Below, one piece after another: positions 2,939 through 16,175 of a stretch of 64,000 nucleotides of DNA. The position numbers and the translations under genes were made by a program. Source of the DNA: Escherichia coli (lineage in GTDB: Bacteria; Pseudomonadota; Gammaproteobacteria; Enterobacterales; Enterobacteriaceae); NCBI RefSeq assembly GCF_001677475.2, contig NZ_CP015229.1, one strand, 5' to 3'. The stretch's first letter is position 1. Each line of letters opens with the position of its first letter. Below the pieces are notes generated by a model, which worked only from the letters and a program-made list of their open reading frames with translations, did no database searches and had not been told where the DNA came from.

Positions 2939-4066
2939 TTAACCCGCTAAATGCTCGCGCTTCAGATACTCTTCGCTTTGCATCTCTTGCAGACGTGACA
3001 GGCAACGCTGGAACTCAAATTTCAGCCGCTCGCCCTGATAAATGTCATATAGCGGCACTTCTGCACTCACCACTAATTTGACATGGCGCTCGTAAAACTC
3101 ATCCACCAGCGCAATAAAGCGCCGCGCTTCGCTCTCCATCAACCGCGTCATAACTGGTACATCAAACAACATGACCGTATGAAAGAGGCGTGAGAGCGCA
3201 ATATAGTCATGCTGACTGCGGGCGTCGACGCACAGCGTAGTAAAAGAGACCGCCAGCGTCTGGTTCTCGACGCCCATTGTCGCCAATGGCCGATGGTTGA
3301 TTTCTAATGTCGGTGAATTTTCTCGTTTCGCCCCCGCCAGCGCCAACCATAGTTTATCCATTTGCGCCCGGGTTTCATCGTTGAGGGGCGAAAGCCACAG
3401 ATGCGCCTGAGTGAGTGTACGCAGTCGATAATCAACACCAGCGTCCACGTTCATTACATCACAATGCTGTTTAATGGCATCGATTGCAGGCAAAAAACGC
3501 GCACGTTGTAGGCCATTTCGATAAAGTTCGTCCGGCGGAATATTTGACGTCGCTACCAGGGTAATACCGCGGGCGAACAGGGCTTTCATCAGACCGCCAA
3601 GTAGCATGGCGTCGGTAATATCAGAAACAAAAAATTCGTCAAAACAGAGCACGTCAGTTTCGGCTTTAAAGCGATCGGCAATAATTTCCAGCGGATCGCT
3701 TTGGCCTTGTAATTCGGTCAGCTCTTCGTGCACCCGCAGCATAAAACGGTGAAAGTGCAGACGCTGTTTCCGCTCTCCCGGCAGGCTTTGATAGAAAAGG
3801 TCCATCAGCCAGGTTTTCCCGCGTCCTACACCGCCCCACATATATAAGCCACGCACTGGCGTATGCTTTGTGTCTTCCCGTTTACCCCACAGCTTACCGA
3901 CCCGCGCCATTAGCCCACTCGTCCTGGGGGCTGGTGGCGTGCTATTGATGAGTTCCTGATAAATAATTTCCAAGCGGCTGACGGCCTCTTTTTGAACGTC
4001 GTCGGGTTGATGGCTGCCTTCATTGAGCGCCTTCAGGTATTGCGATGTTGGGGTAACGCTTTGCAT
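2939..4066 (-). CDS. zapE: AFG1-family ATPase, cell division factor ZapE (YhcM)
   Basis: 375-aa ORF with P-loop GVGRGKT, recognised as YhcM/ZapE. Confidence 0.93.
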   Translation of the reverse strand: MQSVTPTSQYLKALNEGSHQPDDVQKEAVSRLEIIYQELINSTPPAPRTSGLMARVGKLWGKREDTKHTPVRGLYMWGGVGRGKTWLMDLFYQSLPGERKQRLHFHRFMLRVHEELTELQGQSDPLEIIADRFKAETDVLCFDEFFVSDITDAMLLGGLMKALFARGITLVATSNIPPDELYRNGLQRARFLPAIDAIKQHCDVMNVDAGVDYRLRTLTQAHLWLSPLNDETRAQMDKLWLALAGAKRENSPTLEINHRPLATMGVENQTLAVSFTTLCVDARSQHDYIALSRLFHTVMLFDVPVMTRLMESEARRFIALVDEFYERHVKLVVSAEVPLYDIYQGERLKFEFQRCLSRLQEMQSEEYLKREHLAG

Positions 4067-4259
4067 GATCTTATTGTTATTCCTTGAATAATCGGTGCGC
4101 CGTTGTTCACGGTTGACGAAAAAAAGGCCGTTCTACACTACGCGATATGCAGTCGGGATTCCACTTCTGTGGAATTAACGGTTATAGTGGCATAATCAGC
4201 CGCAGGCATGGAGCCTGAAGCCAACACCCTACGGAAACAAAAGACAACGGGAGATGTTC

Positions 4260-4658: not shown

Positions 4659-4811
4659 TTTATTTTTCGGGCGCAGCCATTGCGCCCTCCTCTTCTTTCC
4701 CTCCCCGACTATCATTTAATCTGGTGTCTCATTGTTAGCCGTCTGAAAATTCAATAACATCAAACTGTTTTGAATCTCTTTTCTTATCATTCAGGTACGA
4801 GAGCAGGAATA

Positions 4812-6179
4812 ATGAAAAAACAAACCCAGCTGTTGAGTGCATTAGCGTTAAGTGTCGGGTTAACTCTCTCGGCGTCTTTTCAGGCCGTTGCGTCGATTCC
4901 AGGCCAGGTTGCCGATCAGGCCCCTCTCCCCAGTCTGGCCCCAATGCTGGAAAAAGTGCTTCCGGCAGTGGTGAGCGTACGGGTGGAAGGAACGGCCAGT
5001 CAGGGACAGAAAATCCCGGAAGAATTCAAAAAGTTTTTTGGTGATGATTTACCGGATCAACCTGCACAACCCTTCGAAGGTTTAGGCTCCGGTGTCATCA
5101 TCAACGCCAGTAAAGGCTATGTGCTGACTAACAACCATGTGATTAATCAGGCACAGAAAATCAGTATTCAGCTCAATGATGGGCGCGAGTTTGATGCAAA
5201 ACTGATTGGTAGCGATGACCAGAGCGATATCGCCCTGTTGCAAATTCAAAACCCGAGCAAATTAACGCAAATCGCTATTGCCGACTCCGATAAATTGCGC
5301 GTCGGTGATTTTGCCGTGGCGGTCGGTAACCCATTTGGCCTTGGGCAAACCGCCACCTCTGGCATTGTTTCCGCATTAGGCCGCAGTGGGTTGAATCTTG
5401 AAGGTCTGGAAAACTTTATCCAGACAGATGCTTCCATTAACCGCGGTAACTCCGGCGGTGCACTGTTAAACCTTAACGGTGAGTTAATTGGCATCAACAC
5501 GGCAATCCTTGCGCCTGGCGGCGGGAGCGTCGGGATTGGATTTGCCATCCCCAGTAATATGGCGCGAACACTGGCGCAGCAGCTTATCGACTTTGGTGAA
5601 ATCAAACGCGGTCTGTTAGGCATCAAAGGCACCGAGATGAGTGCCGATATCGCCAAAGCCTTCAACCTTGACGTGCAGCGTGGCGCGTTTGTCAGCGAAG
5701 TGTTGCCAGGTTCTGGCTCGGCGAAAGCGGGCGTCAAAGCGGGCGATATTATTACCAGCCTCAACGGCAAACCGCTGAATAGCTTTGCTGAGTTGCGCTC
5801 TCGTATCGCGACCACCGAGCCGGGCACGAAAGTGAAGCTTGGCCTGCTGCGTAACGGCAAACCACTGGAAGTAGAAGTGACGCTCGATACCAGCACCTCT
5901 TCGTCGGCCAGCGCTGAAATGATCACGCCAGCGCTTGAAGGTGCAACGTTGAGCGATGGTCAGCTAAAAGATGGCGGCAAAGGTATTAAGATCGATGAGG
6001 TTGTCAAAGGAAGCCCAGCTGCTCAGGCTGGCTTGCAAAAAGACGATGTGATCATTGGCGTCAACCGCGATCGGGTGAACTCGATTGCTGAAATGCGTAA
6101 AGTGCTGGCGGCAAAACCGGCCATCATCGCCCTGCAAATTGTACGCGGCAATGAAAGCATCTATCTGCTGATGCGTTAA
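4812..6179 (+). CDS. degQ: Periplasmic serine endoprotease DegQ (HtrA family, two PDZ domains)
   Basis: Trimmed to ATG 4812 (MKKQTQLLSALALSVGL signal peptide); trypsin-like motif GNSGGAL. Confidence 0.95.
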   Translation: MKKQTQLLSALALSVGLTLSASFQAVASIPGQVADQAPLPSLAPMLEKVLPAVVSVRVEGTASQGQKIPEEFKKFFGDDLPDQPAQPFEGLGSGVIINASKGYVLTNNHVINQAQKISIQLNDGREFDAKLIGSDDQSDIALLQIQNPSKLTQIAIADSDKLRVGDFAVAVGNPFGLGQTATSGIVSALGRSGLNLEGLENFIQTDASINRGNSGGALLNLNGELIGINTAILAPGGGSVGIGFAIPSNMARTLAQQLIDFGEIKRGLLGIKGTEMSADIAKAFNLDVQRGAFVSEVLPGSGSAKAGVKAGDIITSLNGKPLNSFAELRSRIATTEPGTKVKLGLLRNGKPLEVEVTLDTSTSSSASAEMITPALEGATLSDGQLKDGGKGIKIDEVVKGSPAAQAGLQKDDVIIGVNRDRVNSIAEMRKVLAAKPAIIALQIVRGNESIYLLMR

Positions 6180-13588: not shown

Positions 13589-14518
13589 ATGGAACGACTA
13601 AAACGCATGTCGGTGTTTGCCAAAGTAGTTGAATTTGGCTCTTTTACCGCCGCCGCCAGACAGTTACAGATGAGCGTTTCGTCCATCAGTCAGACGGTGT
13701 CAAAACTGGAAGATGAGTTGCAGGTAAAGCTGTTAAACCGTAGCACACGCAGCATTGGCCTGACCGAAGCCGGTAGAATTTACTACCAGGGCTGCCGTCG
13801 GATGCTTCATGAAGTGCAGGATGTTCATGAGCAACTGTATGCCTTCAATAACACCCCCATCGGGACGCTACGCATTGGCTGTTCTTCAACTATGGCACAA
13901 AATGTTCTCGCCGGGCTGACAGCCAAAATGCTGAAAGAATACCCAGGTTTGAGCGTCAATCTGGTTACCGGAATTCCTGCCCCCGACCTGATTGCCGACG
14001 GTCTGGATGTGGTGATCCGCGTCGGCGCGTTGCAGGATTCCAGCCTGTTTTCCCGCCGTCTTGGCGCGATGCCAATGGTGGTCTGCGCCGCGAAAAGCTA
14101 TCTCACACAATACGGCATACCGGAAAAACCCGCCGATTTAAGTAGTCATTCATGGCTTGAATACAGCGTACGACCCGACAATGAATTTGAACTGATCGCA
14201 CCGGAAGGGATCTCGACTCGCCTGATCCCGCAAGGGAGATTTGTGACTAATGATCCGATGACGCTGGTGCGCTGGCTAACGGCGGGCGCCGGGATCGCCT
14301 ACGTGCCGCTGATGTGGGTGATCAACGAGATCAATCGCGGGGAGCTGGAGATCCTGCTGCCACGTTACCAGTCAGATCCACGCCCGGTTTATGCGTTATA
14401 TACCGAAAAAGATAAGCTGCCGCTGAAGGTACAAGTCGTGATCAACTCGCTAACGGATTATTTTGTTGAGGTCGGTAAATTGTTTCAGGAGATGCACGGG
14501 CGCGGGAAAGAGAAGTAA
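13589..14518 (+). CDS. aaeR: LysR-family transcriptional activator AaeR
   Basis: 309-aa ORF with N-terminal LysR HTH, divergent from aaeXAB. Confidence 0.9.
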   Translation: MERLKRMSVFAKVVEFGSFTAAARQLQMSVSSISQTVSKLEDELQVKLLNRSTRSIGLTEAGRIYYQGCRRMLHEVQDVHEQLYAFNNTPIGTLRIGCSSTMAQNVLAGLTAKMLKEYPGLSVNLVTGIPAPDLIADGLDVVIRVGALQDSSLFSRRLGAMPMVVCAAKSYLTQYGIPEKPADLSSHSWLEYSVRPDNEFELIAPEGISTRLIPQGRFVTNDPMTLVRWLTAGAGIAYVPLMWVINEINRGELEILLPRYQSDPRPVYALYTEKDKLPLKVQVVINSLTDYFVEVGKLFQEMHGRGKEK

Positions 14519-14645
14519 TTCATATTGTACTGTTACGTTGTACAAACCTGTGCCAACGGGTTCCCCTCACCCTAACCCCAGAGGGGCGAGGGGACCGTTC
14601 GTGCACGTAGAAGGATTAATTATCCTTCTGAAAATACTGAAATTA

Positions 14646-16106
<1,461 letters not shown>

Positions 16107-16138: not shown

Positions 16139-16175
16139 GCCGGATGCAGCGTGAACGCCCTATCCGGCCTACGGT
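16139..16175. repeat. REP (repetitive extragenic palindrome) element
   Basis: gccggatgcagcgtgaacgccctatccggcctacgg matches the canonical E. coli REP consensus. Confidence 0.6.

What the first reader, a model, noticed from the sequence alone, without database searches (positions are those of the whole stretch)
14563..14629. Clustered inverted repeats in the convergent aaeR–tldD spacer
A C/G-rich imperfect palindrome (CCCCTCACCC...GGGGCGAGGGGA, 14563-14592) is followed by a perfect AAGGAT–TAATT–ATCCTT hairpin (14612-14628). These may be bidirectional terminator elements or a small interspersed repeat of the REP-like class.
Basis: seen in the sequence. Interest (0 to 1): 0.2.

Follow-up and report, generated by a model that had tools for sequence, protein, structure and literature searches.

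The report
Decayed BoxC repeat between aaeR and tldD
The G+C-rich palindrome is a partly deleted copy of BoxC (also called PIT or TMECO), a long-known E. coli interspersed repeat already catalogued at this locus, and with its two small neighbouring hairpins it does not look like a classical terminator, so the finding is ordinary.

Summary
The inverted repeats are real, with coordinates off by 1-2 nt. The 127-nt aaeR/tldD spacer (14519-14645) folds into three hairpins, more stably than all 200 shuffles on either strand.

The large G+C-rich hairpin (14550-14606) is a BoxC repeat. A profile built from 21 published K-12 BoxC copies hits 14560-14602 (E=7e-11). The K-12 orthologue is eco:13_BoxC (Petrillo 2008) and TMECO #14 (Holder 2015).

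The window copy has a 6-nt internal deletion. This removes the middle block, so it fails the three-block triplex consensus.

Complete E. coli genomes carry roughly 37% 133-nt alleles, 50% 127-nt alleles (this window) and 12% alleles of 121 nt or less. Holder already scored this site as 'mutated' in 35 of 56 strains. Hairpin stability is kept in all three alleles examined (about -31 kcal/mol).

The flanking hairpins H1 and H3 are single-copy.

No hairpin is followed by a U-tract. Published data report no terminator activity for PIT elements and a Rho-dependent termination region downstream of tldD.

The most likely role is stem-loops that protect the 3' ends of Rho-terminated convergent mRNAs; this is inferred, not shown. 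The element is already known and of low interest.

The parts
13589..14518 (+). aaeR coding sequence (context). The stop codon is at 14516-14518. Its transcript enters the spacer from the left.
   Evidence: ORF list. Annotated as aaeR in K-12 and other E. coli at the orthologous place.
14646..16091 (-). tldD coding sequence (context). The stop codon is at 14646-14648. Its transcript enters the spacer from the right.
   Evidence: ORF list; annotation.
14525..14545 (.). H1, a weak locus-specific hairpin: TTGTAC / 9-nt loop / GTACAA. RNA folding energy is about -4 to -5 kcal/mol.
   Evidence: Single-copy in E. coli. Invariant in the 5 aligned alleles.
14550..14606 (+). Degenerate BoxC (PIT/TMECO) repeat, C-rich half first on the + strand. 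It consists of the outer arm GTGCCAACGG (14550-59), C-block 1 CCCCTCACCC (14563-72), TAA, a CCCC remnant of C-block 2 (14576-79), AGA, the G-block GGGGCGAGGGG (14583-93) and the tail ACCGTTCGTGCAC (14594-14606). It forms a hairpin of about -31 (+ strand) / -33 (- strand) kcal/mol.
   Evidence: The profile of 21 published BoxC copies hits 14560-14602 at E=7.4e-11. The K-12 orthologue is identical to eco:13_BoxC and is TMECO #14. Boundaries come from the alignment with 9 other K-12 copies.
14576..14579 (.). Site of the 6-nt deletion (TCACCC) relative to K-12. The exact position is ambiguous within the C run. The deletion removes the middle block of the three-block triplex motif.
   Evidence: Alignment A1. 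The TMECO consensus has 0 matches in the window but matches K-12.
14609..14629 (.). H3, a locus-specific A+T-rich hairpin: AGAAGGAT / TAATT / ATCCTTCT, -10.8 (+ strand) / -9.4 (- strand) kcal/mol. It is the first structure after the tldD stop codon. No U-tract follows it on either strand.
   Evidence: Single-copy. K-12 has AGAAAGAT, which gives an A.C mismatch on the aaeR strand but a G.U pair on the tldD strand.
14436..14535 (-). C-rich, G-poor stretch of the tldD-strand transcript just downstream of the hairpins. C/G is 2.0-2.9 in 75-nt windows. It is a candidate Rho-loading (rut-like) region; this is inferred.
   Evidence: Only 1.7% of 75-nt windows reach C/G>=2 on this strand. A Rho termination region is reported on this strand in K-12.
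14675..14774 (+). C-rich, G-poor stretch of the aaeR-strand transcript downstream of the hairpins. C/G is about 2.1. It is a candidate rut-like region; this is inferred.
   Evidence: Background is 3.5% of windows. There are no experimental data for this strand.

Best explanation
The spacer between the convergent genes aaeR and tldD holds one degenerate copy of the E. coli interspersed repeat BoxC (also called PIT element or TMECO; this site is TMECO #14). Two small single-copy hairpins, H1 and H3, flank it.

Shown: the identity of the repeat; its 6-nt internal deletion, which destroys the three-block triplex motif but leaves a hairpin of about -31 kcal/mol; a population-wide series of 133-, 127- and 121-nt alleles; and the absence of the features of an intrinsic terminator.

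Inferred: the hairpins act at the RNA level. RNA polymerase coming from either gene reads through them and is stopped further on by Rho, in the antisense of the opposite gene, where C-rich/G-poor stretches begin right after the hairpins. 3'-5' exonucleases then trim back to the stem-loops, which set and protect the mature 3' ends. H3 and BoxC would serve tldD mRNA; H1 and BoxC would serve aaeR mRNA. The repeat itself probably arrived as a selfish or neutral insertion, and only its hairpin is maintained.
For: Identity:
- A BoxC profile built without the orthologous copy hits 14560-14602 at E=7.4e-11.
- The K-12 orthologue equals eco:13_BoxC and is TMECO #14, 44 nt from aaeR and 53 nt from tldD.
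- The core is multi-copy (median 16 places per genome), while both flanks are single-copy.

Decay:
- Alleles of 133, 127, 126 and 121 nt exist.
- Holder et al. scored TMECO 14 as 'mutated' in 35 of 56 strains.

Hairpin kept:
- Folding energy is -30.5/-34.4 kcal/mol (133-nt allele), -31.0/-32.7 (127 nt) and -31.4/-32.3 (121 nt).
- Random 6-nt deletions average -24/-27 kcal/mol. The observed alleles rank in the top 3-17%.
- Most of the orthologous spacers of 30-200 nt in other Enterobacterales also carry a strong, non-homologous G+C-rich hairpin, a REP or a BoxC.

Not an intrinsic terminator:
- There is no U-tract and no terminator-scan hit in the spacer.
- PIT elements showed no terminator activity.

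Rho:
- K-12 has a Rho termination region at 3390148 (- strand), antisense to aaeR, with Rho score 6.0 and p=5.5e-18. Downstream/upstream reads are 26/148 untreated and 243/231 with BCM.
- C/G>=2 windows lie directly downstream of the hairpins on both strands.
- The general mechanism comes from Dar & Sorek 2018 (abstract).
Against: - No Term-seq 3' end was listed in the K-12 spacer (3390300-3390699) under three growth conditions. The predicted trimmed ends are therefore unobserved, possibly because expression is low.
- The Rho score has a resolution of about 800 nt and was measured on the K-12 133-nt allele, not on this one.
- There are no data for the aaeR strand.
- Preservation of hairpin energy could simply reflect deletion by slippage between the direct C-blocks, which tends to spare one stem arm.
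- In two genomes examined an ISEc13 insertion splits the element, and about five relatives have spacers of 15-22 nt with no hairpin. The structure is therefore dispensable.
- K-12's H3 carries a mismatch.
Confidence: 0.6

Rival explanations
1. The clustered inverted repeats are a bidirectional Rho-independent (intrinsic) terminator that serves both convergent genes.
For: Strong hairpins sit between convergent genes, and the structure is significant on both strands. In the C-first orientation, several other K-12 BoxC copies are followed within 5-10 nt by a T-run, which makes them terminator-like.
Against: No T/U-run follows H1, BoxC or H3 on either strand. The run TTTTC lies upstream of H3 on the tldD strand. 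This copy lacks the T-run seen after other copies. PIT elements were reported to have no terminator activity. With Rho inhibited, K-12 coverage downstream equals coverage upstream (243 vs 231 reads), so there is no efficient intrinsic stop on the tldD strand.
Confidence: 0.06
2. This is a functionless relic: a selfish or neutral BoxC insertion that is decaying by replication slippage. H1 and H3 are chance or neutral palindromes, and nothing in the spacer is under selection.
For: The stepwise 6-nt deletions, a 1-nt deletion and an IS insertion are all tolerated. TMECO loci are generally hypervariable, and no function was found in earlier assays. H3 is imperfect in K-12. An 8-bp perfect hairpin is not rare; about 6.5 are expected per 64 kb by chance. 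Some relatives have 15-22-nt spacers without a hairpin.
Against: Hairpin energy is retained in all three alleles, and an accompanying A>G change in the 121-nt allele restores about 2 kcal/mol. Most orthologous spacers of 30 nt or more in Enterobacterales have an independent strong hairpin. 7 of 18 K-12 TMECO loci are in convergent spacers, against roughly 15% expected (my estimate), giving p of about 0.01.
Confidence: 0.3
3. The element acts at the DNA level as an intrastrand triplex (H-DNA-like) structure that stalls polymerases or promotes local genome instability. This was proposed for TMECO.
For: The full motif forms a triplex in vitro, and TMECO loci are more variable than controls. This locus is indeed indel-polymorphic.
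Against: The window allele has lost the middle block and fails the three-block consensus. Only a duplex hairpin/cruciform remains. In vivo DMS footprinting did not show a triplex even for an intact copy (section 17 text).
Confidence: 0.04

Closest known systems
BoxC repeat of E. coli (Bergler 1992 and Bachellier 1990s; 56-bp G+C-rich imperfect palindrome; 22-32 copies in K-12)
   Same: It has the same sequence family, with a profile hit of E=7e-11. It sits at the same locus as published member eco:13_BoxC. It is extragenic, palindromic and multi-copy.
   Different: The window copy lacks 6 nt (TCACCC) of the second C-block and has an A>G change in the loop.
PIT elements (Hoyne & Maher 2000/2002) and TMECO (Holder et al. 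2015, PMC4666352), a potential intrastrand triplex motif. TMECO #14 lies between aaeR and tldD.
   Same: It is orthologous to TMECO #14, type A. It belongs to the 'TMECO mutated' class that Holder et al. counted in 35 of 56 strains at this site.
   Different: It fails the defining three-block consensus CCCTCNCCC-N3-6-GGGNGAGGG-N3-GGGNGAGGG. Its triplex potential is lost, and only the Watson-Crick hairpin remains.
REP/PU elements and BIMEs
   Same: Both are short extragenic palindromic interspersed repeats. REPs occupy this same spacer in Salmonella, Citrobacter and Pseudocitrobacter.
   Different: There is no similarity to the REP consensus. The window's only REP-consensus match is at 16159-16172, inside a REP at about 16139-16172. 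BoxC has about 20 copies rather than hundreds, and no associated RAYT transposase is known.
[quoted passage not shown]
   Same: The spacer has stable stem-loops without a U-tract, C-rich sequence immediately downstream, and Rho dependence of read-through reported for the tldD strand in K-12.
   Different: No mapped 3' end at these hairpins is available. Membership is inferred.
Bidirectional intrinsic terminators of convergent genes
   Same: A hairpin cluster sits in a convergent spacer.
   Different: It lacks the A-tract/U-tract flanks. By contrast, E. albertii tldD is followed by a canonical hairpin plus TTTTT.

Membership tests
BoxC repeat family | Sequence similarity to the family consensus or profile | tested here: met
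   An nhmmer profile of 21 published K-12 copies (orthologue excluded) hits window 14560-14602 at 38 bits, E=7.4e-11, with a 6-nt gap. Intact K-12 copies score 47-58 bits.
BoxC repeat family | Interspersed, multi-copy in the genome | tested here: met
   The 61-nt core gives a median of 16 places per E. coli genome (range 2-27). The flanks are single-copy.
BoxC repeat family | Extragenic, G+C-rich imperfect palindrome of about 56 bp | tested here: met
   It lies in the 127-nt aaeR/tldD spacer. The hairpin spans 57 nt, 14550-14606.
BoxC repeat family | The orthologous site is catalogued as a member | tested here: met
   The K-12 spacer sequence equals eco:13_BoxC and TMECO #14.
PIT / TMECO intrastrand-triplex motif | Three-block consensus CCCTCNCCC-N3-6-GGGNGAGGG-N3-GGGNGAGGG | tested here: not met
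   There are 0 matches in the window. K-12 (L001 2496-2530, - strand) and E. cloacae (L019) each match once.
PIT / TMECO intrastrand-triplex motif | Formation of an intrastrand triplex | not testable with these tools
   This needs CD/NMR or footprinting. Loss of the middle block makes a triplex implausible.
Intrinsic (Rho-independent) terminator | G+C-rich stem-loop | tested here: met
   The BoxC hairpin is about -31 kcal/mol and H3 about -10 kcal/mol.
Intrinsic (Rho-independent) terminator | U-rich tract immediately 3' of the stem | tested here: not met
   The terminator scan finds no site in 14519-14645. The sequences after the stems are ACCTGT, GTAGAA and GAAAAT on the + strand, and ACGTGC, AGGTTT and TATGAA on the - strand.
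Intrinsic (Rho-independent) terminator | Factor-independent termination in vivo | not testable with these tools
   Literature only. PIT elements showed no terminator activity. K-12 BCM data show Rho-dependent read-through on the tldD strand.
REP / BIME | Match to the REP consensus (...CTTATCMGGCCTAC) | tested here: not met
   The only match in the window is at 16159-16172, in the tldD-yhdP spacer.
3'-end protective stem-loop of Rho-terminated transcripts | Stable stem-loop lacking a U-tract, with a C-rich region downstream | tested here: met
3'-end protective stem-loop of Rho-terminated transcripts | Steady-state RNA 3' end mapped at the base of the stem, with exonuclease dependence | tested here: inconclusive
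   No 3' end is listed at K-12 3390300-3390699 in Adams 2021. The Dar & Sorek supplements are not held. Nothing was found in the SMRT-Cappable-seq or TERMITe tables.

The most novel reading that the evidence does not exclude
BoxC has had no function assigned for about 30 years. It may be retained in convergent spacers because its Watson-Crick hairpin, not its triplex potential, has been co-opted as a two-way 3'-end protecting structure for Rho-terminated mRNAs. Three observations fit this reading: the 133, 127 and 121-nt allele series keeps the hairpin at about -31 kcal/mol while the triplex block is lost; 7 of 18 K-12 loci are convergent; and unrelated hairpins, REPs and BoxC copies fill the same aaeR/tldD spacer across Enterobacterales.
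Probability: 0.25. Interest if true: 0.35.

Novelty: already known. Interest (0 to 1): 0.1.

Why it matters
It matters little. The element, its presence at this exact locus and its frequent 'mutated' state among E. coli strains are all published (BoxC; PIT; TMECO #14).

The small additions from this work are:
- the explicit 133/127/121-nt allele series over about 5,400 genomes;
- the observation that hairpin stability, but not the triplex motif, is preserved;
- an ISEc13 insertion inside the element;
- the picture of this convergent spacer as a slot filled by different hairpin-forming elements in different Enterobacterales.

If the hairpin does protect RNA 3' ends, that would give BoxC a first modest function.

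Tried and rejected
- Rfam, at a permissive E-value, gave nothing relevant. The best hit was a chance 18.5-bit match to the Antizyme frameshifting element.
- The promoter/terminator scan gave no terminator in the spacer and one chance-level promoter-like site inside the tldD 3' end.
- The REP consensus is absent from the spacer.
- A weak half-BoxC profile hit at 4913-4932 lies inside a 469-aa ORF and was dismissed as chance.
- The search for an 'empty site' in close relatives failed. The genome-contig scan returned E. albertii, where tldD has a different downstream neighbour and no aaeR. Other genera returned have non-homologous spacers. E. fergusonii, E. marmotae and similar species were not among the 80 loci returned.
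- Published 3'-end data for this locus were sparse. The Dar & Sorek 2018 supplements are not held. SMRT-Cappable-seq and TERMITe have no tldD or aaeR entries. The Adams 2021 Term-seq tables have no 3' end in or near the spacer, only the Rho region.
- A literature search for later functional work on intrastrand-triplex/BoxC elements found none beyond Holder 2015.

Full report
**1. What is in the sequence**

aaeR (+ strand) ends with its stop codon at 14516-14518. tldD (- strand) ends with its stop codon at 14646-14648. The convergent spacer is therefore 14519-14645, 127 nt (gene names from the orthologous annotation).

The inverted-repeat finder and RNA folding show three hairpins.
- H1 has arms TTGTAC (14525-30) and GTACAA (14540-45).
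- The large G+C-rich hairpin spans 14550-14606. Its core arms are TCCCCTCACCC (14562-72) and GGGCGAGGGGA (14584-94).
- H3 has arms AGAAGGAT (14609-16) and ATCCTTCT (14622-29), with loop TAATT.

The region 14510-14655 folds at -50.3 kcal/mol on the + strand and -49.5 kcal/mol on the - strand. The z-scores are -3.8 and -4.05, and none of 200 shuffles folds as well.

Its coordinates are off by 1-2 nt, the palindrome is larger than it described, and it missed H1. A perfect 8-bp hairpin alone is weak evidence. The window contains 33 such hits against 6.5 in composition-matched shuffles.

**2. Identity of the G+C-rich palindrome**

The whole spacer is single-copy in E. coli. The 61-nt core, however, finds a median of 16 places per genome across 5,425 genomes. 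The H1 and H3 flanks find a median of 1. Only the core is an interspersed repeat.

The supplement of Petrillo et al. 2008 (PMC2267715) lists 22 K-12 'BoxC' sequences. The K-12 sequence at the orthologous place is identical to eco:13_BoxC. A profile built from the other 21 copies hits window 14560-14602 at 38 bits, E=7.4e-11, with one 6-nt gap. Intact K-12 copies score 47-58 bits.

Holder et al. 2015 (PMC4666352) equate BoxC with the 'PIT' elements of Hoyne & Maher and rename the motif TMECO. Their Table 1 lists TMECO #14 at 3,390,494-3,390,529 on the antisense strand, type A with one mismatched triplet. Their Table S2 places it 44 nt from aaeR and 53 nt from tldD. The element and its presence at this locus are therefore already published.

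Aligning this copy with nine other K-12 copies and their flanks gives the element's extent. It runs from the T-rich tetranucleotide before CCCCTCACCC to the tail ACYGNNCGNGC. The 5' arm is only weakly conserved and is complementary to that tail. This fits the classical description of a 56-bp imperfect palindrome.

**3. This copy is a decayed allele**

Compared with K-12, the window lacks TCACCC, part of the second C-block, and has an A>G change in the loop. The TMECO defining consensus CCCTCNCCC-N3-6-GGGNGAGGG-N3-GGGNGAGGG has no match anywhere in the window. It matches the K-12 locus and an Enterobacter cloacae locus. The copy is thus a BoxC family member by descent and by profile, but it fails the three-block (triplex) definition.

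Population survey of complete E. coli genomes:
- The 133-nt allele (K-12, O157:H7) accounts for about 2,026 genomes, 37%.
- The 127-nt allele (this window, UTI89, CFT073, O111:H8) accounts for about 2,700 genomes, 50%.
- Alleles of 121 nt or less (for example uk_P46212, with CCCC-TAA-CCCC) account for about 640 genomes, 12%.
- A 126-nt variant also exists.

These frequencies are estimates from identity bands.

This matches Holder's Table S3 for TMECO 14: 20 strains unchanged, 1 missing and 35 'mutated' of 56.

In an EPEC E2348/69 derivative and in isolate 538, an IS4-like ISEc13 sits inside the remnant. The apparent target duplication is AACCCCAG.

**4. Hairpin stability across alleles**

The BoxC hairpin energy on the + / - strand is as follows:
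- -30.5 / -34.4 kcal/mol for the 133-nt allele
- -31.0 / -32.7 kcal/mol for the 127-nt allele
- -31.4 / -32.3 kcal/mol for the 121-nt allele

All possible 6-nt deletions average about -24 / -27 kcal/mol. The observed products rank in the top 9%/17% for the first step and the top 3%/15% for the second. The A>G change that accompanies the 121-nt allele adds about 2 kcal/mol.

This fits selection for the hairpin. It also fits slippage between direct C-blocks that happens to spare one stem arm.

H3 is perfect in the window (-10.8 / -9.4 kcal/mol). In K-12 it has AGAAAGAT, which gives an A.C mismatch in the aaeR-strand RNA (-4.2) and a G.U pair in the tldD-strand RNA (-6.7). This is a single anecdotal hint that H3 matters, if at all, in tldD mRNA.

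**5. Is it a terminator?**

No hairpin is followed by a T/U-run on either strand, and the consensus scan finds no terminator in the spacer. Several other K-12 BoxC copies are followed by a T-run 5-10 nt after the element. This copy is not.

Holder et al. summarise Hoyne & Maher's functional study: PIT elements showed no promoter or terminator activity and no effect on RNA polymerase.

For this locus, Adams et al. 2021 (PMC7815308, Supplementary file 2) list a Rho termination region at K-12 3,390,148 on the - strand, antisense to aaeR. The Rho score is 5.99 and p=5.5e-18. The upstream/downstream 800-nt read counts are 148/26 untreated and 231/243 with bicyclomycin. When Rho is inhibited, tldD-strand transcription therefore continues undiminished past the spacer. 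This argues against efficient intrinsic termination there, at least for the 133-nt allele. The resolution is about 800 nt.

Their Term-seq tables contain no 3' end between 3,390,300 and 3,390,699. Other data sets were unavailable or silent.

Rfam has no family here.

**6. Most likely mechanism (inferred)**

Dar & Sorek 2018 showed that Rho-terminated E. coli transcripts end at steady state immediately downstream of stable stem-loops that lack U-tracts. These stem-loops protect against PNPase and RNase II, and rut sites lie just downstream of them (abstract).

The spacer fits this anatomy on both strands:
- It has strong U-less hairpins.
- C/G is 2.0-2.9 in 75-nt windows at 14535-14436 on the - strand.
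- C/G is about 2.1 at 14675-14774 on the + strand.

Such windows make up only 1.7% (- strand) and 3.5% (+ strand) of the whole 64-kb window.

I therefore think the hairpins most likely define and protect the 3' ends of the two convergent mRNAs after Rho-dependent termination in the antisense of the opposite gene. My estimate is about 40% for the functional part and about 97% for the identity.

The main rival, at about 30%, is that nothing here is selected and the repeat is simply decaying.

**7. Comparative context**

Eighty tldD loci from other species were fetched, and 46 of them keep aaeR downstream of tldD.
- Salmonella, Citrobacter, Pseudocitrobacter and one Enterobacter carry REP/BIME elements in the spacer.
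- E. cloacae carries two inverted BoxC copies.
- Most other genera carry a 30-50-nt spacer that is essentially one perfect 10-13-bp G+C-rich hairpin, usually without a T-run.
- About five have 15-22-nt spacers with no hairpin.

The slot is thus usually filled by some hairpin-forming element, but the elements are not homologous.

Several of the simple hairpins have CCCTC/GAGGG-type stems reminiscent of BoxC blocks. I did not test whether this is homology.

E. albertii has another gene downstream of tldD and a canonical hairpin plus TTTTT. It gave no 'empty site'.

From Holder's Table S2, 7 of the 18 K-12 TMECO loci are in convergent spacers. My own estimate of the background is about 15% of gene junctions, which gives a binomial p of about 0.01. 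At a background of 25%, p is 0.14.

**8. Verdict**

The 'interspersed repeat' reading is right: the element is BoxC/PIT/TMECO #14, in a common deletion allele. The 'bidirectional terminator' reading is not supported. The element is already known and of low interest.

Noticed in passing
window 16139-16172 (tldD-yhdP spacer): A classical REP/PU element (GCCGGATGCAGCGTGAACGCCCTATCCGGCCTAC) lies upstream of tldD. It is unrelated to the BoxC copy.
   Followed up: partly
L004 1540-1560 and L005 1490-1510 (the orthologous spacer in isolate 538 and in an EPEC E2348/69 derivative): An IS4-like ISEc13 is inserted inside the 121-nt-type BoxC remnant, with an apparent 8-bp target duplication AACCCCAG. I did not examine whether this IS prefers BoxC sequences.
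   Followed up: partly
L008-L074, about 3947-4090 (aaeR-tldD spacers of other Enterobacterales): The same convergent spacer holds REP/BIME elements in Salmonella and Citrobacter, a pair of inverted BoxC copies in Enterobacter cloacae (L019), and single perfect G+C-rich hairpins elsewhere. About 7 of roughly 30 simple hairpins have CCCTC/GAGGG-type stems resembling BoxC blocks (L015, L018, L020, L021, L024, L030, L033). Possible homology was not tested.
   Followed up: partly
L007 3947-4110 (Escherichia albertii): tldD is followed by a different gene, with no aaeR within 2.5 kb, and by a canonical intrinsic-terminator-like hairpin GGCTTCAGTG...CACTGAAGCC plus TTTTT. This contrasts with the U-less hairpins of E. 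coli.
   Followed up: no
L088, L092, L093, L095 (K-12 BoxC copies at adk-hemH, pstB-pstA, yihR-yihS and fimH-gntP): In the C-first orientation, several intact BoxC copies are followed 5-10 nt after the element by a T-run (for example GCCTTTTTGAC, ACATTTTTAGAC, CAGTTTTTGGG). The family consensus may therefore extend further 3' and look terminator-like. The aaeR-tldD copy lacks this run.
   Followed up: no
window 14613 and 14555 (K-12 L001 2550; L002/L003): Two polymorphisms look structure-aware. G/A at 14613 in H3 keeps a G.U pair only in the tldD-strand RNA. A>G at 14555 in the 121-nt allele restores about 2 kcal/mol to the BoxC hairpin. Both are anecdotal.
   Followed up: partly
window 4913-4932 (- strand): A weak half-BoxC profile hit (TGGGGAGAGGGGCCTGATCG, E=1.7) lies inside a 469-aa ORF (4770-6179). 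I judged it a chance match.
   Followed up: yes
E. coli phylogroups: The 127-nt allele occurs in B2 strains (UTI89, CFT073) and in B1-type O111:H8. The 133-nt allele occurs in K-12 (A) and O157:H7 (E). The 121-nt allele occurs in uk_P46212. This distribution suggests recurrent deletion or recombination rather than a single event. Phylogroup assignments come from my own knowledge and no tree was built.
   Followed up: no
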